Of a stretch of DNA of 64,000 nt, positions 19,941-55,800 are shown one piece after another. The notes beneath the pieces were generated by a model that searched no databases, was not told the DNA's origin, and saw only the letters and a program-made list of their open reading frames with translations. The translations under genes and the position numbers were made by a program. How positions within the stretch are numbered: position 1 is the first letter of the stretch; each line of letters opens with the position of its first letter. The stretch is from assembly GCA_002787155.1 (NCBI GenBank), contig PCVY01000023.1, positions 6,828 to 70,827 on the forward strand. Reading direction: 5' to 3'. Source of the DNA: Candidatus Abzuiibacterium crystallinum (lineage in GTDB: Bacteria > Omnitrophota > Omnitrophia > Omnitrophales > Abzuiibacteriaceae).

Positions 19941-19956
19941 ATCGAAGGGCTCAGGG

Positions 19957-19979: not shown

Positions 19980-20114
19980 CAACAGAACCCAGTCTTTTCC
20001 CAACAAATTTTTCTCTTTTCGTTAAAGATTTCCGTCTCCTGTCGATATTTATGATAGTACAGGTAAGAGTACTTCCTTGTTCCTGGTTCCTGGTTTTAAA
20101 GAGAGCGACTCTGA

Positions 20115-20366: not shown

Positions 20367-20389
20367 GCGCGCGCGAGAGGAGAACGGCG

Positions 20390-21445: not shown

Positions 21446-21454
21446 ATTATTCAC

Positions 21455-23320: not shown

Positions 23321-23334
23321 ACACAGGACAACAG

Positions 23335-23946
23335 ATGGCGGTCAGACCCGAATCGCAAAAAATCGTTTTACAATGGGCTGTCAAAGAGAAAGTGGTATTG
23401 CACTTGTCTGTTTTGGCAGGGTTAATTGTTTTTGCAGCTTTCGCCGTGATAGGTCCGCGGATAGCTGATTTAAACAAACAAAAAGCAAAGTTAAAGGAGT
23501 TTAATTCTTTTTTACTGGGTACACAAGAAGCCGCGAAACGGCTGAGAAATCTAGAACAATTGCTCGCAGATCAGAGGCAGGCATTAAAAGAGCTCAACGC
23601 ACAAACGCTGAAACGAACTTCCATTGCTGCTATGCTGCAGAATTTTACGGCCGCTTCCGAATCACTGCCAATGACCATTTTGGACATCAGACCGGATGAG
23701 GCACCCGCGGTCAATGATCCAAAGGCCGTCGTGCCGGCCTGGAAAGAAAACGGCTTTGATCAAAAGTTATTGAATATTCATTTTCAATGCCGGTACCAAA
23801 CGCTGGGTCGTTTACTGGAACGCTTAGAAGAAACACCTTTAATTTATCATGTCACTAAACTTGAAATGGGGACCAAGGATTTAATCGCACCTAATTTGGA
23901 CATTTCATTAACGTTAGCTTCTTATGTGGAAAATTCACCTCACTAA
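23335..23946 (+). CDS. pilO: PilO-like inner-membrane pilus alignment protein
   Basis: 203 aa with an N-terminal TM and coiled coil. Called by position between pilMN and pilP. Confidence 0.5.
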   Translation: MAVRPESQKIVLQWAVKEKVVLHLSVLAGLIVFAAFAVIGPRIADLNKQKAKLKEFNSFLLGTQEAAKRLRNLEQLLADQRQALKELNAQTLKRTSIAAMLQNFTAASESLPMTILDIRPDEAPAVNDPKAVVPAWKENGFDQKLLNIHFQCRYQTLGRLLERLEETPLIYHVTKLEMGTKDLIAPNLDISLTLASYVENSPH

Positions 23947-23955
23947 GCAGATACC

Positions 23956-24489
23956 ATGGCACTCAGCAAAAAAGATAAAATTCAATTAGGCATCATCGTG
24001 ATGATGGTCGGACTGATTATTTTTAAATTGCCGGACTTCGTGCGGTTCGTGAGCGGTACCACACAAAAAGCCTCCTCAGGCGTTCCAAATGCCTTACCGG
24101 CACTGCCCGAGAATGCGCCCGATTTTTTGAAGGCCATGGTCATGCAAGTACGCAGCGGCACCGCTCATCCTCATTTCAATTTAACGCAAGAGCGGGCTCT
24201 TAGAGAACAGCAAGCGCTTCTCAAAGAACAATCCTGGGGAAGAGATCCGTTTTTTTCGATCCCCATTGATGAATCGCGGTCCAAAAAAATCGAAGTCACC
24301 GACAGCTCCGAATTGGTTCTCAAAGCGATCTCATTAAAAGGCACAACCGCCATGGCCATTATTAACCAAACGGTCATTCATGTCGGTGATGAAATTTTGG
24401 GAATGACTGTCAAATCCATTGAGCGCGGTCGTGTGATTTTAGCGAACAGCGAACGCGAACGTGTTTTACGTTTTGGAGGCATGACATGA
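23956..24489 (+). CDS. pilP: PilP-like lipoprotein/alignment protein
   Basis: 177 aa with an N-terminal hydrophobic segment and a C-terminal beta-domain 'GTTAMAIINQTVIHVGDEILGMTVKSIERGRVIL'. Confidence 0.5.
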   Translation: MALSKKDKIQLGIIVMMVGLIIFKLPDFVRFVSGTTQKASSGVPNALPALPENAPDFLKAMVMQVRSGTAHPHFNLTQERALREQQALLKEQSWGRDPFFSIPIDESRSKKIEVTDSSELVLKAISLKGTTAMAIINQTVIHVGDEILGMTVKSIERGRVILANSERERVLRFGGMT

Positions 24490-31425: not shown

Positions 31426-31701
31426 ACAGTTCTTCACTATTCCGTATATATATGAGTCATCGGGGAATCAATCCCCGCTGGCTCAGGGTGAGAGGTCTGG
31501 AAACTCCCAGACCCCTCATATATATAAAATATGACCTAATATATGACTATTATAAAATAGAATTATATTATATTAATGTAAGTTGTTTATATATAATGAC
31601 TTACATATCATATTTTTTTCATTTCTATCCTTGTAATTTACCGGATATGCGGTAGACTTTCTAAAGTGCTTTAGTAAGTCAGTTCGCATGGTAAATAATG
31701 C
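31426..31701. promoter_or_regulatory. AT-rich 276-nt intergenic region upstream of the giant gene: 12-bp inverted repeat TATATATATGAG/CTCATATATATA (31445-31456 / 31515-31526) enclosing two GC hairpins, then a highly AT-rich presumed promoter tract with a GTAAGT..ACTTAC inverted repeat
   Basis: Read directly. I could not assign -35/-10 hexamers with confidence. Confidence 0.4.
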
Positions 31702-31800
31702 ATGTTCATCCCTAAAAATATCCAGAGAGCCATAGCCTTTTTTCTTGCCATTTCATTCTCTTTATCGAATGGCCCAACGCTTTTACTTGCCGAAACTTAT
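31702..31800 (+). other. N-terminal signal-peptide-like / signal-anchor segment of the giant protein
   Basis: 'MFIPKNIQRAIAFFLAISFSLSNGPTLLLAETY': positively charged n-region (K5, R9), a 12-aa hydrophobic core, possible cleavage at LLA|ETY. Confidence 0.45.
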
Positions 31801-37800: not shown

Positions 37801-40800
37801 TGGACTGCAGGGGTAGGCGCCGGCGTTCTGCTATCGGCCAAATCAGAATTACGCGTGCAATTTTTTCAGATTGCTTTAACAAAGCTCGTTGACTTTGCAA
37901 GACAAAACGCATCTCTTTTCTTTCGATATGTCATCAACCGTCAGAAGGTTGTTGAGCGGGATGATGACGATTATGAAAAAATGAGTACCGATGAACTATT
38001 AGACGACCTTCAATTTATTCACCTGGCTTATGCTTTTCGCCATGTCCCGCCTCAGCGCAGGTGGGATATTTCACTTTCGCTTGGGTGGCGCGTGCAAAAA
38101 ATGACAAAACCCGAACTTCTCGACTTTTCAAGAAAACTTCTCACTATCTTAACAACCACAAAAGGTTCTAGTGAAAACGCACATCAAATAAGAAGTGCCG
38201 CTGCCGGAGTCTTTAAGGAAGTGGTTAGAATTATTCCAGATACCGAATTATTAGCTATCTTTAAGGCGCTTTTTTCAGCATTAAAAATAACGCACCAGTC
38301 GCTTAGCGTTGCCTTTAGTCACGCCGCCAGGATTGAAGAGCGTGCAATCACAGACACTTTTGAAATAATACGTAAAAGAATGCCTAAAGCTGATTTTTCG
38401 CAAGTGGTTGACGAATACTTGGCAGTGTTGGAAGAAATAAAGAATCGAAAATTTCTTTTCTGGGAAAAAACAATACAACACCAAACTCTCCATTTAATGG
38501 GGGAAGCAGTCTATTCCTTTCCGGAAGCTCAACTGAGGCGAACGGCTAAAGAATTGATCGCTATTTTACGAGCTCTCAAGGACCAGGGCGGAAATGTGAA
38601 CGAAATTCGAATTTTATTACTTTATGTTTTTCGGAACATCGTCGAGCGTTTACCCGAAGCTGATCTGGGCGGCTATGTGACTGAATTACTCTCAACGTTT
38701 GATGCTATCAAAGGATCGAACGAACACGCTGGAGAAGCAAAAGGAGACATAGGTCATATTTTGTCGAAAGCAGCTGAACGGATGCCGCCCTCAGAACTAC
38801 CTCATTTTGCGGATGAAGCATTGATCAGGCTAGAGTCAACGCCAAATCGGGGAAATCAAGCTTATCAGACAACGCGAGCGATGGCGGAGGCTCTTTGGGG
38901 TTTTGCAAAGGCAGTTGATCCCGAAAAGGCGGATCCGCAAAAGATGTCTAAAATCATGAATCTACTTCTTGAAAAATTAAAGCTGATCAAAGGAAAAGGT
39001 GACAATGAGGAGTGGGCCAAAATACATATCTTGCTCGCTTTAGGAGCCATAGCTAAAAAAATCCCACATCAAGAGCTTCCCGGGCTTTCCAATGCAATTC
39101 TTTCAGAGTTAACGCATTATGAGTTTAATGACGGACTCAAAGGCCGTTTAATTGATGTGCTGATAGCAATTGCAGACAGCATTGATCTTGCTGAGCTGCC
39201 AAAGATATCAAACGAGCTTCTGGATGTTTTAAAAGAGATGGGAGAATTAAATGATGACGAAGATGGAGGGTATCAAACACTCGTCACTATAGCTGTATTT
39301 TTTGAACAGATCACACCCAAAATCTCAGAAACAGAACTCCCTCGTATTTCAAAAGCATTTCTCACTGCACTCGCCGCCATCAAAGGATCTAGTTACAATC
39401 TAGACCGTGTGAGAAGGTTTGTCGGAGACGTGCTGGCTTTGATATCACTGAGGATCAATCACTTACCATTGGATAATAAGCCATTAATTGAACAGCTTCA
39501 AAAGTTCTTCTCGCTTGCTCCGGCTAGTCATTCACTTTTTCCGATGTACGGCGACCTAAATGAAATTGGGCATATTTTAAAGCTTGAAGATCACAAGCAA
39601 GTAATAGCCCAACTCAATGCCTACCAGGCACAATTACTGGCACGGTATCAAAGGGAACAGGGAACTCCGCCACACAGCGTCGGGCGGATCCGTCCTCCGG
39701 CGGAAGGGAACAGGGAACAGGGGACGGGGATCAGGTCACAAGACACGGATCACGATCTCTGGCTCAGCGGACCGGTAGGGGCGGGTATCCGGGCAGAATT
39801 AAGAAACAAAGACTATTCCAAAATGACGATCGATGAATTGTTACAGGCACTTCAAATGGGAAGGTCTGATCAAGAAGCTCAGGAACTTAAAATTGGAATT
39901 GCCAAAGTTTTAAAAGAATCAGCTAAAACCATGCAACCAACGGAACTTCAGCATCTTTCTAATAGGCTCCTTTTACTGCTAGAGGCAGCACCGGCAAAGG
40001 GGAGGGCGGGCCGGCAAACCATTCAAGCAGTTGCAGATATTTATCAAGTGATTGCGATGAAAATTGACCCTGCCGAATTGCCTAAGATTTTAGAGGCACT
40101 GCTTACCGCCTCAAAACTACCGCTCAAATATGACGTTGACGGCAGAGATGCTAAAAGGTTCATTACGATTGCATTGACAAAAGTTGCTGAACGAATCCCA
40201 GAAGAAAAACTTCCTACCATATTAAATTATGCGCTTCTTGAATTAAGCCATTATGATTTGGATGATCAATTAACATACAGTTTAATTTTTGTGCTCGATG
40301 CAGTTGCTAACCGAATCCAACCAACCGAACTGCCAAGAATTTTGCATGCCTTACTCGATAAGCTTAAAACAATCAAATCATTAGATGATAAAGATGAAGA
40401 GGATCTCATTTGGCAGGTAGTGATGATAGCAGCATTTACCTTTAAATCGATTGCCGCCAGAATGAGCGCAACGGAACTACCGGCCATTTCGAAAAGACTT
40501 CTCGAAATACGCTCGCTTGCCAAAAGAGATAGCACTCAGGCGGAAAAAACAAGAGACGCTCTCTTAGCGCCTTTTCCTGCCATTGCTGCCCGTATAGACA
40601 AAAAAGAATTACCTAACTTATTTGATCAATTTGTTGACATTTTGAAAAATACACACCGAACAGACGCATCGCCGGGATCAAGTTCTAACATGAGATTGCG
40701 TTCGCGCAAAGTATTGGCAATTATTTTTCTCAGGAACCATCAATTACCTCTGGATGATGAAACCTTGGCCAAAGCGCTTGAGAACCTCTTGGGCATTCAC

Positions 40801-43800
40801 TCTCCTACCGATTCACTTTTTCCCATTTATGGTGAGTTCTCCGAAATCGACCGCATTTTACGATTGCCAGGCCGTGAACAAATGATTGCTCAGCTCACTA
40901 TTTACCGGAAACAATTAATCGCACAGTCTCAAAGGGATCAGGGAACAGGGAACAGGGAACAGGGAACAGGGGACGGGGAACAGGGGACGGGGATCAGGTC
41001 ACAAGACACAGAATCAAATGATACGCTTTGGGTAATTAGTCCTGCTGTCGAACGCTCCGAACTCAGAACCAAAGATTATTCCCGCATGAGCGTTGATGAA
41101 TTGTTAAACGAACTTCAGTCAATCAAAGGATCAACTATTGATGTCAATTGGGCAAGAGAGGCCATTGCCGATACCCTCACAGAAATATTAAAAAGAATTG
41201 ATCCAACCAAACTTCCCGCTATTTCACAAGCCTTGTTGACCGCTTTAAAAGAAATCAAAGGATTTGCTGATGATGCTAATCGGACAAGATGGGCCATTAC
41301 CTTTTCCTTCCCAGAAATATTGCAAAGAATTGATCCAACCGAACTCCCCGCTATTTCACAAGCGTTGTTGATCACTTTAAAAGAAATCAAAGGATTATCT
41401 AATGCGACCAATGAGGCAAGACGGACCATTACCTTTTCCTTCCCAGAAATATTGCAAAGAATTGATCCAACCGAACTCCCCGCTATTTCACAAGCCTTGT
41501 TGATCGCTTTAAAAGAAATCGAAGGATCAACTGATGCTGCCAATCAGGCAAGATGGGTTATTGCCGATGCCTTCAGAGAAATGCCAAAAAGAATTGATAA
41601 GTCTGAACTTCCCGCTATTTCACAAACCCTCTTAGCTGCTTTAAAAGAAATCAAAGGATCAACTATTGGTGCCAATCAGGCAAGAGAAGCTATTGGCAAA
41701 ACCCTAGCTGTTATTGTCTTTCGTCATCATCAAATCCCTGTCACCGATGAGACAAATGATTTATTGAGCGCTCTTCAAGATGTCTTTACACTTGAAATGA
41801 ACGGTGTTTCCATCTATCCCATAGAAAACCATCATCCATTGAACAACCCGGACAATCCCATTCATCAAATCTTTAAACAACATGATCAAGATTACGCACA
41901 AATCATGAGCCAGCTCAATCGTTACAGGGAACAATTGAGCGCACAGCATCAAAGGGATCAGGGAACAGGGAACAGGGAACAGGGGACGGGGATCAGGTCA
42001 CAAGACACGGATCACGATCTCTGGCTCAGCGGACCGGTAGGGGTGGGTGCTGGTTTAACAAAAGCCGGTCGACAGTCCGCAGACCATGATAAAAGGGTAG
42101 AACTGCGAAATGAATCACCCAACCTAGAAGACTTGAGTCCAACCGATGAGGCCCGTGAAGTTGAAGTGGTCATTAAGGCAATTCATGCATTGACAGATTC
42201 GGTTTGGAAGCAACCGCTGCCCCGTCTCAATACCCGATCGAACGCAGGAGCTGAACTTGCTTCATTAGTGAACCAGTGCGTTCACTTGATACGGGATACA
42301 AAGATGACGGTTAACGAGCAAATACAATTGGTGAAGGCGTTCCTGCATTTGCTCGAGTCTTTCGAGTCCTTATACTTGAAGACACTGGTTGGAAGTGCGA
42401 GTCATTTGCAACTGCATTGGCTGCTTAGGCACGTCATGACGGCAATACCGTTCGGGCAAATCACGCCTATCCGTCATGAGATCTATTTATCCCAAGAAAT
42501 AGCCAGAAGGCAGGGTCCTTCCCGTAACACAACCTTGCATATAGATTTTCTAAGCGAAATATTAATCATGCTTGCATTGAAGCAAGCAGGTTTTAAAGGA
42601 ACGTGGGATACGTTAGCCGTTGATAAAATATACAACACAAACGTGTGGAAAGAATTGGGTGATTTCTATTCGGGAACTGTCAGGGTGCGGAGGGAAGGTA
42701 TCGGATTCCTGCATCAATATGCTGATGATGCTGAAATTAACAAGATTATAAATATCTGGCTGGATGATAGCGGCAATCTTGATCACACGCGTGCAGAACA
42801 AGTCATCACTCAACTTAAGCTCTATATCGATCAGTTGCTTCATCAAATTAAAATAAAAGCAAATGAAGAACCCGGGACCGATGATGCTGAACAATCAGCT
42901 GACTCTCGTCCGGAAGATATTTGGCTGCGGGGCTCGTTCCGCCCTCAAGGCGGATTGGGGCCTTCAAAATCTGAATTGCGCACGGCCAAGTCAAAATCTG
43001 ACCTTGGAAAGCGCTTAACCCAATTAGCAAAAGATTTAGAAGCCGAGGTTGAAGCGCGGCAGATAAAAGGATTGGCAAAGCAATTGCTTGAGAATAAAAG
43101 CACCCGCACAAAAACAGATGCCCAAATCGAATCAGAGATCAAAGAAAAAGCGGCGGATGATGCCGCTATGGACCGGTTAATTGCTCATTTAAAAATTGCG
43201 CGCGCTCTTAAGGAAGCGGGAAATGATTTTTTGAGGGATTATGAACAAACGCATTATCTCAAATTAGCTAAAATTCAGCAGCCAAACGCTGTTTTGTGGG
43301 GTCTGCGCTTTCTGGATCTTGATGATATCCAGGATCCGGAAATTCGCCGGTTGATGGGGAAACTTCAGTCACTTTTGATGGTGAACGAGTTCTTTGGGCG
43401 TTCTAGCGCCGCCTTTGTCGAAAGCGTGCTGACGGAATTTATTGTCAACACCGTGATCGGAGATGATTTTGGCATGACGGAACTCTTGACGTCTCTTGAT
43501 CCTAACCAAAACCTGATCGAATTGTTTCAAGATTGGGGCGTTAACGTTCAGCTCAAATACAGCCGGGAGCACACGGGCATTCAAGCGCTCTATGACATAG
43601 CACGTCTTTATTCCAAGGTGTTCCCGGAGTTCAACAATAATGCACGTACCGGTTTTATCACGCATGATTTCAAGGAAATGCTGAGGGAGCCTGAAGGGGA
43701 TGCCGATCGAAATCAGCAGGCACGCGCGTTGGCAAGGGGAGGAGCCGCGCAAGCACTCAATCTGTTAACCATTCGCTTGCTGGGTTTGCCAGCGGGGCGC

Positions 43801-46800
43801 ACCATGGAACAACAGTGGCAGGAACTTTTTAAAATCACCGAAAAAGGAATTCCCAATCTTCAGAAACCGGAACATTTAAACGGCGCGCGCGCCGAAGATA
43901 TTTTGGCGGGTCTGGCAGAAATTTCCAAGACGTCTCAAGGACAACTCAAAGAAGTGGTGGCTGAGCTCATCCAGGGACGGTTTAAATTGCTGGTGAATCA
44001 CGATGTCGAACGGTTTAAACAAATTGGCATCATCATTGGTTTTACGGGGATTGACGGTTTTGCAAAGATTCCGTTCGGCCGCTTGCGGGAAAAATATCAT
44101 CTGACCGAAGGCAGTGAAGAGGAAGGCCGGCTGCTCAAAATCGTTGCCCAAATTTCCAGAACAGCCCGGGAAGGGACAGGCGGCCTCATTGAAGAAGTGT
44201 TTGATCTTTACAGCCAAGAAGCCGGCGAACATTTGGACGATTTGAACAAACTGCTTCAGGCATTTAGTTACTTTGTGCGGCTTGTGAATTTTCACCACGA
44301 TTATGAACGGCTTGTCTTAGAAGGTGATATCGGCAAGGTGAACAATGAAGCGCTCTTTGTCAGCTTGCGGGATTTGAAGCGCACACTTGATATCGTGAAG
44401 AAAAACGATGCCAAAGGGATGGACATTCGCGATGCCATTGCTTCTGCTGTCAAGCGCCGCTATTACAACCGCTTGAGCATCGAAGATCGGGGTATTGTTC
44501 GTGATTTAATGGCGAGACACCGGCTGATTCATGAAAACGATCTCCTGGATTTTGATTATGTGATTGATGGTTTCAAAAACGGCAGTTCCCGAATTCGTAT
44601 CTATCGCAAACGTAAATCAGGCCCGGCGCGGTTTAAACGAACGGAAGTCAAGCCCGGCGAATATAAGATGGAATTAATTCAAGAAAGCGTGGGAAAACCC
44701 GAACTGCTGCTCGAGATTCCGCTGGCTCAGCCGCTTGCCAACGTTGACCCGAAAATTATTTTAAACGAAACGACCCGCCGTAACCTGGCCAATATTCTGG
44801 ATGCATTGGAAGTGGAGGAGGGAAAGCGCTTTAATCCGGTGCTCGAATTTGGCGTGACTTCAGGCGGCAAAAGTACGACGGCAGCGTTGGTTGCCAAGAT
44901 TCTGGGCGTTGGTTTTACGCGCATTCAAATCAATGAACGCACCGATGAATTTGACCTTTTCGGATCGTTTCAGCCTTATGAAATCAATATCACGTTAGAA
45001 GAAGCCATCCAGCTTTTGCAGGAAGCGCTGGCCACGAACAATTATAACGGTCTTGAGGATGTGTTTAGTCGTTTAAAGTCGGATCAAACGGGACAATTTT
45101 GGGAAAATTATTTCAATGCTCAAGAACGACAGACAATCGAGCTTGGAAAGGACAGCCGTTATCCCCAGCGTTCGGTATTGGAGCGTCAACGAGCCGCCAT
45201 TCGTGATAAATTAAAACAATTGGCGGATAAACAGTTAGAACTTGCTCAATCGCTCAAAAGTTTAAGCGCTCAGGAACGCCGCCTCATTGATTCCAAGACA
45301 GATAACCCTGTCTGGCAAGCGCAGCTTGCCCAGCTGCGCCGGGAAGAAGCGGAAGGTTTTGATCAGCTGAACCGCATCAAATCCATTGCATTTATGTTAA
45401 ACCACGAGGTGGGCCTTCGGTATAAGGAAGGGCGTTTTCTCACGGCTTACAAGCGCGGAGATCTCATTCTGCTTGATGAAGTGAATTTAGCCAACGAAGA
45501 AATGCTGGGCGTGCTTTATCAATTACTCACTTTGGGTTATTTGGAATATAACGGCAAAGTGATCGAACCGCCTTTGGGCAAACAAGCCCGCATTCTAGCC
45601 ACGGCCAATCCCTCCGGTTATGCGGGCCGCAGACGCATGAGCGAAGCTTTTATGAACCGTTTTGAAATTATCCATGTTGATGAAATGACGGATGAGGAAA
45701 TGCGCGATATCGTGGTTGGGCAAATGATGAAAGATCTCATCGCCTCAGGCCGCTATACAGCCGGGGATTTTGAACAAAACTCGGATGAAGCGCCGGAAGT
45801 ATGGGATAAAAAAATCAACAAGATTTTACAGGAAGAATATGGTATTACGCGCGAAAGCACTCGATTGTTAGCTGGAGTTCAGCGAAAATTTAACAGCATT
45901 TTGGCGACGGGCAGTTTTCCGCGCATGGGATCCGACTCCAATTATGTCTTCACGCTTCGGAATCTTCAACGGATCGCCGGCGATGTGAAAGAACGCAAAG
46001 AAAATGGCGAACGCATCACCCTTGAAACCTGGATTCGGGAAGCGTACGGCGAATATGCCGGCGTCCTCATGCGGCCCAGCACACAGCCTTCCTACACCGC
46101 AGAGCGGCTTAAGCCTGATGAATCATTGCCGGCGGAACATCATTTATGGGATGATCCGGATTACAAAACCATTCGGCGGGTATTTACGACTTTCATGGGT
46201 GAATTGATTGCCGGAGAAAGTCATCAAAGTTACGATGACGCTTTTGACGAACTCATTCGCCGGCATTTTGAAACCATTCCGTATGTCTATGACTCAACCG
46301 CCCATGCCATCAAGCTGGACGGTCTTCTTACCCAAGGTGCTGAGCCAAACGATCAAAACCCCATTGAACCTTTAATCGAAGTGGGGTCAACCAAAATGGT
46401 TCAAAGGCAAATTTTAAAAGGCATTCGCCGGAATATCCCAACGCTCCTTGTCGGTCAATCCGGCGGCGGTAAAACAGAAATCATCGGCGACTTAGTCAAT
46501 CGCCTTGGCCGTCAATATATCAGCGTGTCTTTGGGCGATGCCACACTGGAAAGTCTGATCGGCACCATGGAATACAACCGAATGGAAAAACGTTTTGTTT
46601 ATCGGCGGGGTGTGCTCGTCAAAGCCATGGAAGAAGGTTCGGTTTTGGTGCTGGAAGAACTCAACATGGCTAAATCGGGCATATTAGAAATTTTGAATGA
46701 ATATTTCGATGACGGAACGTTTACCAACCCGTTTACCCTAAAACAGGTAGCGGTACACCGTGACTTCCGGTTGTTCGCTACCATGAACCCGATTCAGGGT

Positions 46801-49800
46801 GAGACGGGAGAAAATTTAGGCCGCGTGAGTTTGTCGCCCGCTCTCAGAAACCGCTTTCGGGAAATTTGGGTGCCGCACAAGAAAACGGACGCTGAAATGA
46901 ACGAAATTTTAATCGGAAAATTCAAGCAATTGGGTGTTGAAAAAATCGAAAAAGCAACAGGCGCCAAAATCATCGGCTTTTTCCGTGCCTATGAAGAGGC
47001 TTTTAAAGATCAAGCTGATCCGGTGTATTACACCAGTCTGCGCGATTTGAATCGGATTGCCAAAATCATGGCTTATTTAATCAATGAGCTCGACATGCAT
47101 GAGTCGGATGCATTGGCGCGCGCCATTGACCGCGTTTACCGTTTACGCATGCAAAACAGCGGCGCCTTGGCAGTGGTCGATCAAATTCTCATTGAGCTTA
47201 AAATCAAGATCCCGGGTGCCGGTCAATTGTCGTACCAGTCTCGGAATGGCGTCTTGGAAGTGCGCGATGGTCAAACACTGGTTGCCAAATTAGACCTTTC
47301 TTTGATACAGGCCAAGCTTCGCGACCGCATCCGCGGAGAACTCAGTGCTGATACGGATCCGGCAGAACTTGAAGCACTGACAGAGAAGCGTCTAAAAACT
47401 CTCTTGGATGAAGCTGTCTTGGTAGAAAATCCGCGCACGAAGGCTCATCTGCTGGATTTAATGGAAGCCGTCACGCTTCCTTCCGGCGAAGTGAAAAAAG
47501 GAAAATTTAACCCGATTTTTCTTTTGGGTGAGACCGCCGGCGGGAAAAGCTCCCTTACCAAATATTTGGCACTCCATCTTTTGGGCCAAAACTATACGCG
47601 CATTCAATTCAACGAACGCACGGATGAGTTCGACCTTTTTGGCGCCTATGAACCGCGCGAGCTTCACATGGGTCTGGACCGCGCTTTTCGGATTGTTCAA
47701 AATGCGATGGAACAAGGGGAGTGGGTCAAAATCAAGAAAGCCTTGAAGCTTTGGCAAACGGGGGCATTGACCGAAGATGATCTGTCCGAACTTGAAATGA
47801 TTGAGAAGGTGGAAGAGCGCATTCGCACGGTAGATTTAGAGGCCTCTCAACAGATCACAAAGATCTTAAAGGATGCTTCCGAGGAAGATGTCTTAGGTGA
47901 CCCCGGTCAGAAACGTGAAGCCGAACGCAAACTCAAAACCATTGCGTTTTTGATTGAAAATAACATGTTAAATGTCGAGCTGGAATTTCGCGAAGGCAGG
48001 TTATTACAGGCGATCAGGCGCGGCGATGTGGTGGTGCTGGATGAAATGAACCTGGCGAATGAAGAAGCGCTCGCTGTTTTATATCAACTCCTGACTCTGG
48101 GTTATGTGGAGTATTACCACAAAGATACCCGGCAAGTCGAACGCATTACCCCGGCACCGGGCTTTAAACTCATGGCGACCGCAAACCCCGCCTCATATGC
48201 GGGTCGTCATCGGTTGAGTGAAGCCTTAATGAACCGGTTTGAGATTCATTATGTGATGAACATGACACCCCAAGAAATGACCGAGATTCTGCGCGGTGAA
48301 AATAGTCATGAACCAGTGTTCGAACGCGATCAGTCATTTCAGACCACTGTTGAGAAACTGACATTGCTTCAAGAAAATATCAATGAAGCGCTCCGAAACG
48401 GTCAATTTCCCGAAGTGAGTTCCGACCAAGTGCAAGGCTATTTATTTACGCTTCGCAATTTGAAACGTGTTTTACGGAATACAGCAGAACTCTTACGCCA
48501 AGGCGACAGTTCGCCGCCATCTGAGTCACTCATTCGACAAGCCTACCTTGAATACTTAGGCGTCCTCGGACGTTCAGACGCCTCCATCAAAACGCTGCAG
48601 TCTCTTTTCAAAGCGCCAAAACAATTTCCCCAATTTAACCCTGATTTTCGAATTTCCTTTGAGTCAATGACTATGCCCAACGGTCAATCGGGTATTTTAG
48701 CGGGTGGTTTCAAAGTCGTGAGACGTTTTTATGAAGATGAGGCAGAAGGCGTTTCGCACGATGCAGATGTCATTGAAGAGCTTGAAGAGGGTGCAACGAC
48801 TAATTTGATCCGCCAAGCAATTGCGAAAGGACTGTTAGATTCTCGGATGGCGGTTTTGCTGGTGGGGCAAAGCGGCGGGGGTAAAACAGAAATGATCGGT
48901 GATTTAGCAAGGCGTCTGGGCTGGCGCTACCGCTCCGTTTCGCTTGGTAATGCCACCCTGGAGAGTTTAGTCGGCGGTTATGCCATGGACCACGAAACAA
49001 AAAAATTCCGTTATATCCCCGGGATTTTAATCCAGGCCATGCGCGAAGGCGCCATTTTGGTTTTGGAAGAAATGAATATGGCACCGTCCGGACTATTAGA
49101 AATTCTGAATGAATATTTTGACGAAAGTACCTTTACCAATCCCATGACGGGACAGAAAGAAAAAATTCATCCCAATTTTCGGTTATTTGCCACCATGAAT
49201 CCGGAAAAAGGTGTGACGAGTACCAGCGAAGGCCGTGTCGGCTTGTCGCCCGCTCTTCGCAGCCGTTTCTCAGAAGTATGGGTGCCCCATATACGGACGC
49301 AGGCGGAAACAGAGAGAATTATTCGTAAGAAATTCAGCAATCGAGGGGTAAGCCATGTACCGCCCAAAGTGACGGAAGATATTTACCGCGTCTATGACCA
49401 ATACCGCCGGTTTGTTGAAGAAGGCAAAATTGGCCAAGAAAGCAACGAAGGCTATTACGTCGGTTTGCGTGATGTGGTGAAAATAATTGACCTGGTAGCG
49501 CAGGATCAATCGCGCGGCATTCCAATGGAAGAAGCGCTGCGTTTTGCCTTCAAACGAATTTTTTATTTACGCCTCAATAGCGATGCGGACCGCAAAACAG
49601 TTCAAGAAGAGATTCTAAAAACATACGACATGAGCAAGACGGAATACCAATGGAAAAGTGTGAATGACCATTGGGTGGTTAAGCGCACTCAGTGGCAAAC
49701 GGCAGAAGTTCCGAAGGCACTTTTGAAGGAAAAAGGATTTATTTTAACGCCGCAAAGCCAAGAAGAGCTCGCGCTTCTGCTAGAGGCAATGCAGCGCGGC

Positions 49801-52800
49801 GTGACTATTCAGGGCAAAGCAGCCGCGCGTTCCTTTAATCCCATGATGCTGTTTGGTGAGACTTCCGGAGGAAAGTCTACCTTGGTTGAAATTGCCGCCA
49901 GTATTTTCCGGACCCCCTTTACCCGTATTCAAATGAATCAACGAACCGATGAATACGATTTGTTGGGCAGTTACCATCCTGTTGAAGTGAAGTTGACATT
50001 TGAACAAGCCTATGAAGTCGTTCAATCGGTTATTCGCCAAAATCAAACACTGCGTACCGCACAAGTGCTGCGGGCTTTACACATCACGGATGATCACGTG
50101 AAATCGGTTTTGCGCATAAACCCTGATCAAACGATGCCCTTAGAGCAGCTTCAAAAGCGCTTTTTAGAAGAACATGTTTTGGCAAATGCACGGCAGGGAA
50201 ATCCCAAGAGCATTGAACAAATGAAAGATATCGGCGCACTCCTCTTGAACGGCGTTGCCGGCATTGAACTTATTTTCCGTGAAGGCATGCTGCTTCAGGC
50301 CATGGGCGACCGTGAAACCGGTCGACCGGGTCAAGTGGTTCTGTTGGATGAATTTAATTTAGCCAATGAAGAAGCAATCGGCATTCTTTATCAACTGCTA
50401 ACGCTGGGATATATCGAATTTCAAGGGCGGAAAATCTTTCCCGGTAAAGGGTTTCAATTAATTGTGAGCGGCAACCCTTCCCGCTACTCGGGCCGAAGGC
50501 GGATGAGTGAAGCTTTTATGAACCGCTTTGAGATCTTGAACCGTCCTTCAATGACCAAAGAGGAAATGGTTAAAATCTTGACGGAGAAATATGCTTTAGA
50601 AGCATCGGGGATTTCGAAATCCGGCATCGAAGCCCTGGTTGATTTGCAGTTCGACATCGAAGAAACGGCTCAGTCCATCGGTTTTGACTTTTTCAACCAA
50701 GATAACACGTACCGATTTAGTTTGCGGAACTTGGAACGTATTGTGCAGGATTTGAAAAAACGGATGGAAGTGGAGCCCGAACGTTCCGTGCAAGTCATGT
50801 TGCGCGAAGAGGCCTATTTAGAATATGCCGGTTTGCTTTCACAGTCCACCGATGAGGATGATCCGAAGAAGAATAATTTGAAAGTCTTAGCAGGTCTTTT
50901 TAAGAAACACTTCAATTGGGAGATCGATCCGGAAACGGTTTTACCCGAATTCAAGAAGCAGACGCTTGTTAAAGGAGAAGACGAATGGATTTCCTTAAAC
51001 GGGGTGCGTGTGAGAAAACTCTCACCGCATCAAATGTTAGAGAGTTTGCAGTTGGAATTAAATGAAGAAATCAGAAGCGGCGCCTTGGCAGATGATGATG
51101 GCGGAAAATTAGTGCTTTTAACAGAGGCGAATCTTGTGCGCATTTTAGCGCAGGTAGAAAAACGGCTCGCCAGTCATGATCCGCTTTCAAGAAAAGAAAT
51201 CATGCGCGAGGAAGCGCGCACGGAATATCTTAAGATGCTGGGGGAATCGCCTCGTTTGGTCAAGCGCTTAGACGAACTGATTAACCAGCATTTTTATACT
51301 CAAGCCGAGCGCATCGAGCCTTTGGTAGAACTCAAATCAACACGTTTGGTGCGCATGCAAATTTTAAAAGGCTTCCGTGACGGCGGCGTGATTCGTTCTC
51401 GTGATACGGAAGGACGGGAGGTTTTGAATCATCGTTCGCAGCCCGTGCTTTTAGTCGGACAATCGGGCGGCGGTAAAACCGAAGAAATTGCCGATGCGGC
51501 CAGGGAGCTCAACCGGCCTTATATTTCGGTGGCGTTGGGTGCGGCGACCATTGAATCGTTAATCGGCAGCTTTGTGCTGAATAGCGAAACGGGCACTTTT
51601 GAATTTCGAAAAGGGATTATGGTGCGCGCGATGGAAGAAGGGAGCGCGCTCACGCTCGAAGAGCTCAATATGGCGGAAAGCAGCATTATCGAAGTGCTGA
51701 ATGAATATTTTGATCGAGGAACGATGACGATTCAAGAGCGGAATGTTCCCATCCGCATTCATCCCAACTTCCGCTTGTTTGCGACAATGAATCCGACCGA
51801 AGGCAGAACCGGCAGAAATGCGGGACGTATCCCGCTGTCTCCTGCGCTGAGAAGCCGGTTTCGGGAAGTCTGGGTCCGCAATGAACGCAATAAGGGCGAA
51901 CAATACCGCCTCATGTTAGGCGGGATTCACGCGCTTGTTTCTTCTTTAATTACAAGAGGTCTGCCGGAAGATAGGCCGGATGAATTGGAAAACTTAGAGC
52001 TTGATTGGACACGCCGAAGATTGGCTGAGACCGCCGGGCAGCAGGTGCAATTCGCAAGCAGCGAGTCATTGTCCGCCGCATTAAAGGCGGGTCCGTCCAT
52101 TACACTGCCTCGCCATGACAGTTCAGCTATCCGCATGGCCAAAGCATCTGAAGACGGAACGCCCAAAGAAAAACCCACATCAAAGGAATGGGAGCGTATG
52201 GCTATCAATGAAAGAAAACGCATTTATGAAGAACAGTTTCGGATTGTGAGCCACGGCATCATGAACATCATGTCTTCCGATGAAGCCATCGAGTTAGGCC
52301 TATCAAGAGATGGAAGCCATCATTGGGCGTATGCACCTAGTATCAATACATTAATTTATAACAGCCGGGAAATCATGACTTTGAGCTTGGATGCGTTAAT
52401 CGGTGTCGGCGTTCATGAATCGATGCACCGTTACGGCACCCGGTATACGTCTCTTTTTGCAGACTTTTTAGATGCACAGAGTTTGGCGGGCAGTTTTTTT
52501 AATATTTTAGAAGACGGACGCATTGAAAATTGGGCACGTTATCGATTCCGGGGCGTGGAGCGGCCGCTGCGCACACTGAATGATGAAATTATTTTTGATT
52601 TTGAAGATGATAATGAAATGGTTGAGCGCATGATTAAAACTTCTAAAGATGGTAAAGACATAGGTCATGCCGGTGCCATCGGTAATTTCTTTCTTTATCT
52701 CGCAAAACGCGGATCAGATCCGGGCGCCGGCAAAGTCATCGAAAAGTTCTTAAAAGCGTTTGAAGAAAGAGATCCGGCTTTGAAAGAGGATATAGAAAAT

Positions 52801-55800
52801 CTCATGCAAGCCGGCTATTTTGGCGGTGCCAGAGACGAAGATATTATTGATGCGGCACGGCAGCGCAAAGCACAAGGCGTTTTTTCAGCTATTCCAGTCT
52901 CGCCTGATGATGTGGGTGTTTATCGTGTGGATCCCAATCCTTCGGAAGAAACAATTTTGCAATTGGCCATTCACCAAGGTATTTTGATTCGCGATTTTAT
53001 CATGCCCGTTGTTTACAAATGGGCGGTGCTCCAAGCCGAAGGCGAAGGAAGCGGGAAAAGCGGTTCGGGCGGCGCGCCGGGTAGAGGGAAAATCGTCATT
53101 CGGCCGGGCAAACCCGGCGAAGAAAGCACGCCTATTTCACCGCGTGAGTGGAAAAAAATTTGGGATTCATTATCTGAAAATGACAAAAAGAAAATTCTGG
53201 ATACGCTGGATGATCTCAAGAAAAAAGCCCAGGACCGCACAGCCAAAGATTCTATCGATCATAAGAACGCCGCCATCGATGCGGAAATTACCGAACCTAA
53301 GAGCGAGCGCGACCGCTTGATGAGCCAAATGGGCAAGATGATTCATGAGTTGGCAGGATATCTGAGAGATCTTATTCAAAATACGATTCGGCCCAAAGAA
53401 ATTACCGGCCTCAAAAAAGGCCGTATCGACGTCCGGCGTCTCATGAACGCCATGGCGCGCGGTTTTACCGACATGCGTTTTTACAAACAGCGCATCATCC
53501 CTGACAAAAAGGATATCAAATTTACCTTAATCATTGATGAAAGCGGCAGTATGGCAGGGATGGGTGAGTCCGGCAAAGGTCCTGAGGACAATGCGGCAGC
53601 CAAAGGTTACCGCACCTTAATGGGCGCCGCCCTATTAATGGAAGTCCTTGAAACTTTAGGCATTGATTTTGCAGTCCGTGGTTACGGGGATGACACTTTT
53701 CTGCATAAGCGATTTAAAGGACAGCGTATCGAACTATCCGATCAGCGCGCTCACTTTCCGCCGGTGCCGGATGGTTATGCCACACGCAAAGAAAAAGATA
53801 CTTTAATCGATGACTTATACGGTTCTATCGGTAACCATGGCGGCAACAACGAAGGGCCGGCGCTTCAAGCCGCGATTCGGGATATCTTAAAGGCAGGCGG
53901 TGAAAAACATTTTGTCATCGTGATTACCGATGCGATGGGTGACACCAAAGCCATACAAGAGATTTTAGACGAAGTCAGAGCTAAAAAAGGCATGATTGGT
54001 TCCACACAAACCGAGTTCATTGCCATTGGTTTGGGTAATGATACGGAATCGGTGCCGGAGGTCTACGGCAGCGAACACGGATTTTGGCTGCATGATGACG
54101 AAGTCCACAAACTGCCTTCCGAAATTAAAAAGCTGCTGCAAAACGTGATCCGCGGTGTTTATGCACCCGGCAGCGGAACCCCCAGCCGTTTTTCACAGTT
54201 CGGCAAACGGATGACTGATAGTGCTTCAATGGCGGGTGCGGCGGGTGTCGGTGCAAGTACTGCTTCTGCTTCGAGCGCAGCCCGCTCGCACTCAGAGCTG
54301 CGTGCAGATGATTTGGAGTCAAAGGTGCGGAAGATCATTATTCGCTTAGCGCGTTCCCAAGGCGATGGTTTATCTGCTGAACAAGAGCACACGGATATGC
54401 TCAGGCGGTTAGGGGTGCTGGCCAATCGAAGATCACCAGAGGAAGTTTTTGAAATTGTGATCGAAATGATGGCAGACGAGACAGTTGGTTTTAGTCGAAA
54501 AGAAAATGCGATTCGCCGCGCTATCATGGAAGCGTTTCTGAAAGAACTGACACCATCGGCTGTCCTAACCTCGAGCGCGATTAATGAGTTACAAGATTTA
54601 ATGCACACTTTAGCCAGGGAAGCCCACTCACCGGAGGCTCAAGCAGAAATTGACGTGATCAAGAGTCGCATCAAAGAGCTCAGGCTTAAACTGATCATGC
54701 GTCAAGAGGTCTTTACTTATGCCAAAATCACCCAACTTTTGTCTCTCGATCCCTCTGAGACGGTTGATTTATTTCTTGAATCTCTTTTAAGCGGCGATTA
54801 CAGCTCGGGAGTTGATCGTAAAAGAATGGCTAGTAATTTTGGAAATTTGATCTCAAACCTAAACGGCGAACTATTGTTGCAAACAACCGAGCAAATCATT
54901 GAAGCTATCCGGACAGATCCTCGAGCTCACATTGATCCTTATGAGAACCTTGAGAAATATGGGTCAAAGATAGCTTACGAACGACATTCGATTCTGTTGG
55001 AAGGTTTATTGGTGGCTGTGAAAAAGGTGGATCGTTCTATATTGCAGTCAATTGTTGATTGCATGGTTCAAGACTTGCAATATGAGAGGAGCAAGAAACT
55101 CAAGGCGGAAATTTTAGCTATTGCTTTGTTGCGTCAGGAAAATATTATTACTACCAATCCATCTCAAGAAGAAAAAAGTCTCATTAATGCATTAGTAAAC
55201 TTGCCGGGACGTTCCACTTTTCAAACCAGTGATCTAAAAGAAATAACGCTCATGTTGCAGCATGCCAAACCAAAACGAGGGCGCCTGTCAAGCCAAGCCA
55301 TTAAAGTCCTGAGGGAACAGATTAAGAATTTTGATGAGCAAATCAGAGCCCGGGCAACACGCGCACAAAATGAAAATGAACAGCGTTCTGAAGACAATTT
55401 GTTGCCTCCGGATACTGAATCTGAGCTTTGGTTAGAAAATCCTCGCGCGGAACTCCGTACCGAAAATGATGGCAGCAGACGTGTCGATCAATTGTTAAAA
55501 GAACTTCAATCGATTCAGGGATCAAGCGATGAAGCGAATCGCATCAGGCGCGACATTGGGCGGGCTTTAAAGAAGACGGTGGAAGAAAATGCAATCATTG
55601 ATCCCTCTCACGCTGCCCAAGTTCTCATCTCAACGCTTCATCAAATCAAAGGGTCAAACGCCGGGGCTTATAAAGCCAAAGAAGCCATCGGATGGGCGCT
55701 GGCCGAAGTAGCCAAAAAAATTGAAACAACGGAACTTCCCAAGATTTCTCAAGCTTTTATTTCGGTTCTTGAAGCAATAGAAGGATCGAGTGCTGCCGCC

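What the first reader, a model, noticed from the sequence alone, without database searches (positions are those of the whole stretch)
44851..51670. AAA units alternate between two subtypes; even units carry a Walker-B Asp-to-Glu change
Odd units (1, 3, 5) have Walker A 'G(V/E)TSGGKS(T/S)' followed by 'TRIQxNERTDE(F/Y)DL(F/L)G', a 150-250 aa helical insert between Walker A and B, and Walker B 'hhLDE(V/M/F)NLANEE'. Even units (2, 4, 6) have Walker A 'LVGQSGGGKTE', no insert, and Walker B 'hhLEE(L/M)NMA', where the canonical Asp is replaced by Glu. This implies the ring arose by triplication of a two-domain unit. As in dynein and midasin, only a subset of sites may be catalytically competent.
Basis: seen in the sequence. 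Interest (0 to 1): 0.6.

Follow-up and report, generated by a model that had tools for sequence, protein, structure and literature searches.

The report
Bacterial midasin-like ring of alternating ATPase units
Inside a giant gene of an uncultured Omnitrophota bacterium sits a six-unit ATPase ring related to the eukaryotic ribosome-assembly motor midasin; it is built from three copies of a two-unit module, and one unit type always carries an unusual but strictly conserved change in its ATP site.

Summary
Window 44851-51670 covers six AAA_5 ATPase units, part of one reading frame of more than 10,767 aa (31702 to beyond the window end).

- **Long units (1, 3, 5):** Walker A to Walker B spacing is 160-205 aa, and Walker B is LLDE.
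- **Short units (2, 4, 6):** the spacing is exactly 63 aa, and Walker B is LEE.
- **Similarity:** same-type pairs give blastp E 1e-58 to 1e-78; mixed pairs give only 1e-5 to 1e-13.
- **Insert:** it is smaller than reported, about 92-132 aa. It is a five-helix bundle on the helix-2 hairpin, the position of the H2-alpha inserts of Rea1 AAA2/4/6.
- **Conservation of the Glu:** in 16 related proteins or loci, mostly from Omnitrophota, all 33 short units read EE and all 30 long units read DE.
- **Other catalytic residues:** the Walker A Lys, catalytic Glu, sensor-1 Asn and arginine finger are intact in all six units. Sequence therefore gives no sign of dead sites.

The ring belongs to a midasin-like module. 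A lid of the short type precedes unit 1, and unit 6 has no lid. A conserved HExxH domain and a midasin-type MIDAS domain follow the ring.

Triplication of a two-unit module is supported and is ancient. Eukaryotic midasin shows the same odd/even split. I rate this a new variant of a known kind.

The parts
31702..63999 (+). Giant open reading frame (more than 10,767 aa) that contains the whole feature. It runs off the 3' end of the window.
   Evidence: No stop codon in frame 0 from 31699 to 63999. ATG at 31702 follows a 270-bp AT-rich intergenic region.
43906..44715 (+). Pre-ring element. A degenerate C-terminal half of a short-type large domain, then a short-type lid ('lid0', SLRDL at aa 4222) and a beta-rich linker. 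No P-loop is present.
   Evidence: hhalign against the short-unit profile: probability 97.9%, E 6e-13, 179 columns. blastp against the region before U5: E 1.4e-12. Pfam AAA_lid_5 'Midasin AAA lid': E 0.0017.
44716..46353 (+). Unit 1, long type. Walker A GVTSGGKS at 44851-44874, Walker B ILLDEVN at 45466-45486, sensor-1 ATANP at 45598-45612, Arg finger AFMNRF at 45646-45663, lid motif TLRNL at 45952-45966.
44989..45384 (+). Helical insert of unit 1 (about 132 aa) in the helix-2 hairpin.
   Evidence: Alignment of the six units, composition, and analogy with the modelled insert of unit 3.
46354..47418 (+). Unit 2, short type. Walker A GQSGGGKT at 46453-46476, Walker B LVLEELN at 46645-46665 (Glu-Glu), sensor-1 ATMNP at 46777-46791, Arg finger ALRNRF at 46840-46857, lid motif SLRDL at 47035-47049.
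47419..48768 (+). Unit 3, long type. Walker A GETAGGKS at 47527-47550, Walker B VVLDEMN at 48031-48051, sensor-1 at 48175-48189, Arg finger at 48223-48240, lid motif TLRNL at 48448-48462.
   Evidence: AF2 model with pLDDT 82.
47668..47949 (+). Helical insert of unit 3 (about 94 aa, five helices) between the two strands of the helix-2 beta-hairpin.
   Evidence: DSSP of the AF2 model: strand 75-80, helices 86-181, strand 187-192, then beta3/Walker B at 204-208.
48769..49743 (+). Unit 4, short type. Walker A at 48865-48888, Walker B LVLEEMN at 49057-49077 (Glu-Glu), sensor-1 at 49189-49203, Arg finger ALRSRF at 49252-49269, lid motif GLRDV at 49462-49476.
   Evidence: (AAA_lid_7 'Midasin AAA lid', E 6e-4).
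49744..51348 (+). Unit 5, long type. Walker A GETSGGKS at 49855-49878, Walker B VLLDEFN at 50338-50358, sensor-1 VSGNP at 50464-50478, Arg finger at 50512-50529, lid motif SLRNL at 50719-50733. Helical insert at about 49993-50268.
51349..51933 (+). Unit 6, short type, large domain only. Walker A at 51457-51480, Walker B LTLEELN at 51649-51669 (Glu-Glu), sensor-1 at 51781-51795, Arg finger ALRSRF at 51844-51861. No lid motif follows.
   Evidence: The sequence after aa 6745 is poorly conserved and shows no LR(D/N)L motif.
52189..53058 (+). Conserved helical domain with HExxH (HESMHR, aa 6906) and FNILEDGRIEN. Possibly a metallopeptidase-like domain.
   Evidence: H76, E77, H80, R81, D109 and E113 are invariant in six homologues down to 24% identity. 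The AF2 model is confident here. No Pfam or PDB sequence match.
53386..54258 (+). MIDAS (von Willebrand A) domain with DESGSM and TDA/TDG metal-site motifs.
   Evidence: A profile of 6 sequences hits Midasin MIDAS domains first in the PDB: 6qt8 E 8e-9, 6or5 E 2e-7. The AF2 model matches NorD and human MDN1 MIDAS (8ql1, TM 0.71). Pfam VWA: E 4.5e-4.

Best explanation
The six units are the motor ring of a prokaryotic midasin-like module, about 3,450 aa long (aa ~4070-7520). The module sits inside a giant protein of an Omnitrophota bacterium.

**Architecture.** The ring is a single-chain pseudo-trimer of long-short (L-S) pairs that arose by an ancient triplication.
- L units have a canonical hhhhDE site and carry a helical bundle on the helix-2 hairpin. 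This is the position of the H2-alpha inserts of Rea1 AAA2/4/6.
- S units are compact. They carry hhhhEE, with Glu replacing the Mg-positioning Asp.
- Inferred: the ring closes because an S-type lid encoded before unit 1 pairs with the lidless unit 6.

**ATP sites.** All six sites retain the residues needed to bind and hydrolyse ATP. I read the EE site as a selected variant that tunes a second class of site, not a dead site. Inferred and untested: this gives three canonical sites alternating with three sites that are probably slower and hold nucleotide longer. That would resemble other alternating hexamers and the nucleotide-holding Rea1 AAA1 site, whose Walker B also starts with Glu.

**Output.** Inferred by analogy with Rea1/Mdn1 and the MoxR-VWA pairs: the downstream MIDAS domain binds a client through its metal site, and ring movements pull on or remodel it. 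The interposed HExxH domain may cleave it.
For: **Family and fold.**
- Pfam AAA_5, E 1e-107.
- Best solved relatives by sequence are Midasin (E 1e-86), against 1e-8 for NorQ, CobS and CbbQ.
- The AF2 model of U3-U4 (pLDDT 82, pTM 0.76) has Rea1 6i26 as its top Foldseek hit, followed by dynein motors.

**Two subtypes and triplication.**

**Insert position.** From DSSP of the model, compared with Sosnowski 2018 (PMC6286127).

**Conservation of the site residues.**
- 33/33 short units read EE and 30/30 long units read DE across 16 proteins or loci.
- The Walker A Lys, E550/E551, N594 and R616 are invariant in the 12-row alignment A2.

**Precedent for Glu at the Asp position.** Glu occupies it in midasin AAA1 (hEDhD) in about 100 eukaryotic midasins. 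Rea1 AAA1 is a closed, nucleotide-bound site.

**Ring closure.** Lid0 and the lidless U6.

**MIDAS domain.**

**Module conservation.** aa 4021/4068 to 7517 is colinear in P0008, P0009, P0010 and P0012, while the flanks are not conserved. The same (L-DE, S-EE)x3 plus MIDAS arrangement occurs in the Omnitrophota MAG loci L002 and L003.
Against: - No biochemical data exist. The kinetic meaning of EE is inference.
- Ring closure by lid0 was not modelled.
- The linker between ring and MIDAS is only about 490 aa and is unrelated to the roughly 1,700-aa Rea1 linker. The force-transmission mechanism of Rea1 therefore cannot simply be transferred.
- The giant protein starts with a segment that looks like a signal peptide, and no other membrane segment is seen in 10,767 aa. 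This leaves open whether the ATPase even faces the cytoplasm.
- Unit trees do not resolve which midasin units correspond to L and S.
Confidence: 0.7

Rival explanations
1. The short (EE) units are catalytically inert structural or nucleotide-holding sites. Only the three long (DE) units hydrolyse ATP. This is the first reader's reading, analogous to the alpha subunits of F1 or to Rea1 AAA1/AAA6.
For: The Walker B Asp normally positions Mg2+ (general knowledge; McrB discussion in PMC6344862). Midasin AAA1 also has Glu at this position and is classed as lacking a functional Walker B.
Against: Midasin AAA1 has also lost the catalytic Glu (ED), and AAA6 reads DN. Here the catalytic Glu, sensor-1 Asn, Walker A Lys and the neighbouring Arg finger are invariant in all S units. 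A purely structural site would be expected to drift.
Confidence: 0.25
2. The alternation is not ancestral to the midasin family. The module descends from a eukaryotic midasin gene acquired horizontally, or the resemblance of the alternating inserts is convergent.
For: After a handful of prokaryotic proteins, the closest relatives in 1.8 billion representatives are eukaryotic midasins (E about 1e-90). The register of long and short units is shifted by one relative to midasin.
Against: - No Omnitrophota unit nests within a specific midasin unit. Support for L with AAA2/4/6 is 0%, and for L with AAA3/5 it is 12%.
- L and S are further from each other than from midasin units.
- Related multi-AAA_5 plus MIDAS proteins occur in Thermoproteota, in Elusimicrobiota and in unnamed metagenome proteins, and their MIDAS domains are closer to this one than eukaryotic ones are (E 1e-28 to 1e-34 against 1e-5 to 1e-11).
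- The linker and the D/E-rich region of midasin are absent.
Confidence: 0.12
3. The six units do not close into one intramolecular ring. Instead L-S pairs from different copies, or from different parts of the giant protein, assemble in trans.
For: No full-ring model could be computed (1,200-aa limit). Relatives such as P0158 show extra spacing between pairs.
Against: There are exactly six large domains and six lids once lid0 is counted. The tandem pair model superposes on consecutive domains of Rea1 and dynein rings. Six-unit order is conserved in relatives.
Confidence: 0.08

Closest known systems
Midasin (Rea1/Mdn1), the eukaryotic 60S ribosome-biogenesis AAA+ ATPase
   Same: - Six tandem AAA_5 domains in one chain, and the best solved relative by sequence and by fold.
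- Alpha-helical bundles on the H2 hairpin of every second domain (PMC6286127).
- Units fall into two alternating subtypes.
- The last AAA domain lacks a lid, and an N-terminal element sits before the first.
- A MIDAS domain of midasin type lies downstream.
- Glu at the Walker B Asp position occurs in one short-type unit, AAA1.
   Different: - The register is shifted. Here the first unit is the insert-bearing type and the last is compact.
- All six sites keep Lys, Glu, Asn and Arg. Rea1 AAA1 (ED) and AAA6 (DN) do not.
- All three compact units read EE.
- The N-terminal element is recognisably an AAA lid. The midasin NTD shows no such similarity.
- There is no 1,700-aa linker and no long D/E-rich region. 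A 490-aa stretch with a conserved HExxH domain takes their place.
- The MIDAS domain is not C-terminal in this protein: more than 3,200 aa follow it.
- The host is bacterial and the module sits inside a protein of more than 10,767 aa.
MoxR-type AAA+ with VWA partners (NorQ-NorD, CbbQ-CbbO, CobS-CobT, RavA-ViaA)
   Same: Same AAA+ clade with H2 and pre-sensor-1 inserts. Functional pairing of the ATPase with a MIDAS-containing VWA domain. NorQ, CobS and CbbQ are the next-best solved relatives, and NorD VWA is a top fold match.
   Different: Those are homo-hexamers of single-domain subunits with canonical DE, and the VWA domain is on a separate protein. Here six diverged domains of two types and the VWA domain are fused in one chain.
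Dynein heavy-chain motor domain
   Same: A single-chain ring of six AAA domains. The tandem-pair model superposes on AAA1-3 and AAA2-4 (TM about 0.5).
   Different: No stalk or microtubule-binding domain and no linker similarity. Dynein has lost the P-loops of AAA5/6. There is no sequence-level hit to dynein in the PDB search at E 1e-5.
Alternating hetero-hexameric AAA+ rings (Pex1/Pex6, Rvb1/Rvb2, Yta10/Yta12) and F1/V1 A3B3 heads
   Same: A pseudo-threefold ring in which two kinds of nucleotide site alternate. This is a works-like comparison drawn from general knowledge only.
   Different: Those are assembled from separate subunits and belong to other AAA+/ASCE clades. None is known to me with a conserved hhhhEE Walker B.

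Membership tests
AAA+ ATPases, helix-2-insert clade (Pfam AAA_5: MoxR, dynein, midasin) | Walker A GxxxxGK[ST] and Walker B hhhhDE | tested here: met
   Six Walker A motifs are present. Three units have canonical DE and three have EE at the same aligned position. Pfam AAA_5 scores 44-82 bits per unit against a cutoff of 22.
AAA+ ATPases, helix-2-insert clade (Pfam AAA_5: MoxR, dynein, midasin) | Sensor-1 Asn and an arginine finger in the (N/S/D)RF motif | tested here: met
   (A/V)(T/S)(A/M/G)NP and (N/S)RF are present in all six units and invariant in the 12-row alignment. The role of the RF arginine is inferred from MCM (SRFD) and MoxR (DRF) from general knowledge.
AAA+ ATPases, helix-2-insert clade (Pfam AAA_5: MoxR, dynein, midasin) | Beta-hairpin inserted in helix 2 and a pre-sensor-1 hairpin | tested here: met
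   DSSP of the AF2 model. H2 hairpin strands are at 75-80/187-192 in the long unit and 519-523/530-534 in the short unit. The pre-sensor-1 hairpin is at 230-243. This rests on a model, not an experimental structure.
Midasin (Rea1/Mdn1) | Six tandem AAA domains in one polypeptide | tested here: met
   Conserved in relatives.
Midasin (Rea1/Mdn1) | MIDAS (VWA) domain with DxSxS...T...D downstream of the ring | tested here: met
   DESGSM and TDG/TDA are invariant. The top PDB profile hits are Midasin MIDAS domains, and the fold matches MDN1 MIDAS. In this protein the domain is not at the C-terminus. It is near the C-terminus in relatives such as L005, P0020 and P0022.
Midasin (Rea1/Mdn1) | Alpha-helical H2 inserts on AAA2, AAA4 and AAA6 | tested here: inconclusive
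   Helical bundles sit at the same structural position on alternate units, but on units 1, 3 and 5. Orthology of L units with AAA2/4/6 is unresolved: omniL scores best against mid2 at 252, against 159-214 for the others, and tree support is 0-12%.
Midasin (Rea1/Mdn1) | A roughly 1,700-aa linker (stem, middle, top) and a long D/E-rich region between ring and MIDAS | tested here: not met
   Only about 490 aa separate unit 6 from the MIDAS domain. This stretch holds a conserved HExxH domain with no match to midasin or to any Pfam or PDB sequence.
Midasin (Rea1/Mdn1) | Removes UBL-domain assembly factors (Rsa4, Ytm1) from pre-60S ribosomes | not testable with these tools
   The host is a bacterium, and no partner was identified.
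Omnitrophota giant proteins | ORF above 20 kb in an Omnitrophota genome | tested here: met
   The ORF is longer than 32.3 kb. The PilB/GspE gene of the window is 100% identical to a protein of Candidatus Omnitrophica bacterium CG11_big_fil_rev. The closest homologues of the module are Omnitrophota MAG proteins. Such giant ORFs are described in PMC10066038 and 10.1101/2023.11.21.568195.

The most novel reading that the evidence does not exclude
The fused six-domain midasin/dynein-type ring, built as three copies of a two-type AAA pair and coupled to a MIDAS domain, already existed in prokaryotes (Omnitrophota, Elusimicrobiota, Thermoproteota). It was not invented early in eukaryotic evolution, as proposed in PMC3495828.

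The Omnitrophota version preserves a more primitive state. All six sites are complete, and the N-terminal element is still a recognisable AAA lid. Its conserved hhhhEE site would define a distinct, functional class of P-loop site.
Probability: 0.35. Interest if true: 0.75.

Novelty: new variant of a known kind. Interest (0 to 1): 0.58.

Why it matters
**Origin of the fused ring.** Midasin and dynein are the two classic motors whose six AAA domains are fused in one chain. One published view holds that the fusion arose early in eukaryotes from a MoxR-like ancestor (PMC3495828). Here a bacterial module has the same six-domain plan, the same alternating helical inserts and a midasin-type MIDAS domain. 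Its two-unit repeat is still legible and all six ATP sites are intact. This gives a concrete prokaryotic comparator for how such rings were built: triplication of a heterodimer, then closure through a displaced lid.

**Experimental tractability.** It may be a smaller system to work with. Some relatives end just after the MIDAS domain.

**A natural experiment on the Walker B motif.** The strictly conserved Glu-Glu motif tests the role of the Mg-positioning Asp.

**Function of the giant proteins.** The module is one of the few interpretable machines inside the Omnitrophota giant proteins, whose functions are described as obscure (PMC10066038).

Tried and rejected
- **Word-indexed homologue searches.** The search with U3-U4 returned only 7 distant hits, and the search with the post-ring region returned none. 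The exhaustive HMMER search was needed to find the true relatives.
- **Pfam outside the ring.** Nothing significant in aa 1-4000 or aa 6668-10767.
- **HExxH domain.** No Pfam family for any of six homologues, and only spurious TPR-like PDB hits. My recollection that it might resemble the DUF2201-type metallopeptidase next to MoxR ATPases was not confirmed. I do not claim it.
- **Unit orthology with midasin.** The NJ tree and hhalign give at best a weak preference, L with AAA2 and S with AAA3. Unresolved.
- **Midasin NTD as a degenerate lid.** No signal: all hhalign probabilities were below 1%.
- **Literature.** Searches for bacterial or archaeal midasin homologues, or for any description of this ring in Omnitrophota giant proteins, found only a listing of AAA_5 among frequent domains. 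Garbarino and Gibbons 2002 is not held.
- **Natural or engineered Walker B Asp-to-Glu data.** None found.
- **Sequencing error or pseudogene.** Rejected. The frame is open for 32 kb, and the GAA codons recur in three units and in 33 units of relatives.
- **RNA genes.** No Rfam family or tRNA in the window.

Full report
**1. What is at the coordinates**

The finding lies inside one enormous reading frame. Frame 0 of the + strand has no stop codon from 31699 to the window end: 10,767 codons, first ATG at 31702, preceded by a 270-bp AT-rich spacer. No other ORF of 200 aa or more exists downstream of 31425.

The AAA region contains exactly six P-loops, at aa 4385, 4919, 5277, 5723, 6053 and 6587 (aa 1 = nt 31699).

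**2.

Units 1, 3 and 5 read G(V/E)T(S/A)GGKS ... TRIQxN(E/Q)RTDE(F/Y)DL(F/L)G ... hLLDE(V/M/F)NLANEE. Units 2, 4 and 6 read LVGQSGGGKTE ... h(V/T)LEE(L/M)NMA. The Walker A to Walker B distance is 204, 167 and 160 aa in the odd units and exactly 63 aa in each even unit.

Pairwise blastp:
- Odd-odd: 32-36% identity over 400-460 aa, E 1e-61 to 1e-67.
- Even-even: 42-56% identity, E 1e-58 to 1e-78.
- Odd-even: 25-29% identity over 100-200 aa, E 1e-5 to 1e-13.

On 215 aligned core columns the identities are 0.49, 0.46 and 0.25. The 'would refute' conditions of the finding, equal similarity or a canonical DE in the even units, are therefore not met. The variant codons are GAA against GAT.

Small corrections apply. 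U3 has TAGG and U5 has NQRTDEY. '150-250 aa' is the spacing, not the insert, which is about 92-132 aa.

**3. What the insert is**

I modelled units 3-4 with a 12-row alignment of homologues and paralogous pairs (A2). The AlphaFold model has mean pLDDT 82.4 and pTM 0.76.

In the long unit the order of elements is:
- beta1, the P-loop helix and beta2;
- a strand at 75-80;
- five helices at 86-181;
- a return strand at 187-192;
- the rest of helix 2, then beta3 with Walker B at 204-208.

The insert is therefore a helical bundle at the tip of the helix-2 beta-hairpin. The short unit has the plain hairpin (519-534). Both have a pre-sensor-1 hairpin.

[quoted passage not shown] Foldseek against the PDB ranks Rea1 (6i26) first, at E 8e-17 and 18% identity, followed by dynein motor domains.

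**4. Catalytic residues, unit by unit**

All six units keep the Walker A Lys, the second (catalytic) Walker B Glu, a sensor-1 Asn in (A/V)(T/S)(A/M/G)NP, and an Arg in (N/S)RF. I take that Arg to be the arginine finger, by analogy with SRFD of MCM and DRF of MoxR (general knowledge). Units 1-5 have a lid with a conserved (T/S/G)LR(N/D)(L/V) motif, a candidate sensor 2 (inference). Unit 6 has none.

In alignment A2 these positions are invariant across 12 sequences at 32-65% identity. This includes E550 and E551 of the short unit and D208 and E209 of the long unit.

**5. The Glu is conserved, not decayed**

An exhaustive HMMER search of 1.84 billion representatives found 592 proteins at E below 1e-30. 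The closest are Omnitrophota MAG proteins annotated only as 'AAA family ATPase': P0008 to P0013, at 32-61% identity. A few come from bins assigned to Elusimicrobiota, Spirochaetia or Sumerlaeota.

In 16 proteins or loci of this clade, the window included, all 33 short units read EE and all 30 long units read DE. Complete (L-DE, S-EE)x3 arrays recur in loci L002 and L003.

Outside the clade, Glu at the same position is the rule in eukaryotic midasin AAA1 (hEDhD in about 100 proteins). That site is described as lacking a Walker B yet closed and nucleotide-bound in Rea1. Unlike midasin AAA1 (ED) and AAA6 (DN), the short units here keep the catalytic Glu. Sequence therefore does not indicate dead sites. 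What EE does to Mg coordination and to the hydrolysis rate is unknown, and I found no data on it.

**6. Triplication, and how old it is**

A neighbour-joining tree of unit cores (215 columns, 200 bootstraps) gave these results:
- Omnitrophota long units form a clade at 100%, and short units form a clade at 100%.
- All Omnitrophota units group together in only 4% of replicates.
- Between the window and P0010 (48% identity) the units are orthologous one-to-one, at 89-100% support, except unit 3 at 34%.
- In the more distant P0158 the three long units, and the three short units, group with each other at 100%. This means either independent triplication or concerted evolution.

Profile-profile scores add two points.
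- The L profile and the S profile are further apart (163) than either is from midasin units (159-268).
- Eukaryotic midasin itself splits the same way: odd-odd 273-322, even-even 280-441, odd-even 177-243.

An archaeal relative (P0020, Thermoproteota) and the unnamed metagenome protein P0022 also alternate two subtypes, at 100% support.

The (AB)3 plan is therefore a property of the whole midasin-like family. The AB split is at least as old as the separation of the Omnitrophota and eukaryotic proteins. Which midasin units correspond to L and S is unresolved. L scores best against AAA2 and S against AAA3, but tree support is 0-12%.

**7. The repeat is offset: a lid before unit 1, none after unit 6**

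The roughly 300 aa before unit 1 are conserved in relatives. They align to the C-terminal half of a short unit plus its lid and beta-linker:
- hhalign probability 97.9%, E 6e-13, 179 columns;
- blastp against the pre-U5 region, E 1.4e-12;
- Pfam 'Midasin AAA lid' AAA_lid_5, E 0.0017.

The element contains SLRDL and (A/V)(K/D)RxY..RL but no P-loop. The array thus reads (S-remnant + S-lid)-L-S-L-S-L-S(large domain only). That makes six large domains and six lids.

In AAA+ rings each large domain packs on the lid of the preceding unit. In Rea1 the missing AAA6 lid is replaced by the N-terminal domain. I infer, but have not modelled, that lid0 closes the ring at the unit 6/unit 1 junction. The midasin NTD shows no detectable similarity to any lid or to this element.

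Relative to midasin (S-L-S-L-S-L), the Omnitrophota array (L-S-L-S-L-S) is cut at a different point of the same periodic pattern.

**8. What follows the ring**

About 90 poorly conserved residues follow unit 6. Then come two domains.
- A helical domain (nt 52189-53058) with invariant HExxHR and (E/D)D..(I/V)E. It is confidently modelled but has no Pfam or PDB sequence match.
- A VWA domain (nt 53386-54258) with invariant DxSGS and TDG. A six-sequence profile of this domain hits Midasin MIDAS domains ahead of everything else in the PDB: 6qt8 at 8e-9, 6or5 at 2e-7, then CobT. The model matches NorD and human MDN1 MIDAS, with TM 0.71.

Colinear conservation with relatives ends at aa ~7517. The remaining 3,250 aa or more, and the first roughly 4,000 aa, are lineage-specific. 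In some relatives the protein ends shortly after the MIDAS domain (L005, P0020, P0022).

The same MIDAS profile matches the other prokaryotic multi-AAA_5 proteins at E 1e-28 to 1e-34. Eukaryotic midasins match at only 1e-5 to 1e-11.

**9. Source**

The PilB/GspE gene of the window (9773-11446) is 100% identical to a protein of 'Candidatus Omnitrophica bacterium CG11_big_fil_rev...'. The contig recurs in ENA assemblies.

Giant ORFs are known to be common in Omnitrophota, with few annotated domains (PMC10066038). West-Roberts et al. list AAA_5 only among frequent intracellular domains. I found no paper that describes these rings or calls them midasin-like. One paper states that the six-domain fusion arose early in eukaryotic evolution (PMC3495828).

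**10. Mechanism proposed**

Shown:
- Six AAA_5 domains of two alternating types.
- Helical bundles on the H2 hairpin of one type.
- Complete catalytic residue sets in all six units, with Asp replaced by Glu in one type.
- A midasin-type MIDAS domain downstream.

Inferred:
- A single-chain ring closed through lid0.
- Two classes of ATP site alternating around the ring. The canonical L sites would be the main hydrolytic sites. The EE sites would be tuned and probably slower, as in other alternating hexamers.
- H2 bundles on one face acting as regulatory or docking elements, as in Rea1.
- The MIDAS domain holding a client whose remodelling, or cleavage by the HExxH domain, is driven by the ring.

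Open problem: the N-terminus looks like a signal peptide or anchor, and no other hydrophobic segment occurs in 10,767 aa. The side of the membrane on which the ATPase sits is therefore not established.

**11. Verdict**

The triplication reading is supported. The 'subset of sites competent' reading is neither supported nor excluded.

The feature is a new variant of a known kind: a prokaryotic midasin-like ring with a shifted register, a recognisable closing lid, complete sites, a clade-wide EE Walker B and an HExxH-MIDAS output. It fails the membership test for midasin proper, because the linker and the D/E-rich region are absent, but it plausibly works like midasin.

Noticed in passing
window 31702-63999 (+): A single ORF of more than 10,767 aa runs off the window end. 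The ENA contig carrying it (71,961 bp) ends only about 1.1 kb later, so the true length is unknown. Pfam finds nothing significant in the first 4,000 aa or in the last roughly 3,200 aa.
   Followed up: partly
window 52189-53058 (+): A conserved helical domain with invariant HExxHR and a downstream acidic motif (FNILEDGRIEN) lies between the AAA ring and the MIDAS domain. No Pfam or PDB sequence match, so it may be an undescribed metallopeptidase-like domain.
   Followed up: partly
window 31702-31810 (+), aa 2-36 of the giant protein: The N-terminus (MFIPKNIQRAIAFFLAISFSLSNGPTLLLAETYPG) looks like a signal peptide or signal anchor. No other TM-like segment occurs in 10,767 aa. This is hard to reconcile with an ATP-dependent ring unless the segment anchors a cytoplasmic protein.
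   Followed up: no
window 31430-31545 (+): Two adjacent GC-rich hairpins enclosed by an AT-rich stem sit in the spacer between the upstream gene and the giant ORF. MFE is -43.8 kcal/mol, with z -5.2 against shuffles. No Rfam family matches. Probably a terminator-like element.
   Followed up: partly
window 9773-26147 (+): A type IV pilus gene cluster lies upstream of the giant gene: PilB/GspE, PilC, several GFTLIEL-type pseudopilins, and PilM/N/O/Q-like genes. These are the traits reported for host-associated Omnitrophota.
   Followed up: no
eukaryotic midasins among the hits (P0018-P0157): Profile-profile scores show that midasin's own AAA1/3/5 and AAA2/4/6 form two alternating subtypes. AAA1 carries hEDhD in about 100 species. 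I found no paper stating the odd/even sequence split.
   Followed up: partly
P0158 (4,115 aa; JGI/Logan/ENA metagenome sources) and P0013 (Omnitrophota MAG): In this more distant branch the three long units, and the three short units, of one protein cluster with each other at 100% bootstrap, not with their positional counterparts in the window. This means either independent triplication or concerted evolution.
   Followed up: partly
P0012 aa 14-664 against window aa 10-686 (nt 31726-33756): The N-terminal roughly 680 aa of the giant protein are 35% identical to the N-terminus of P0012. In that protein the ring starts about 600 aa earlier, so the N-terminal region is a second conserved block of unknown function.
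   Followed up: no
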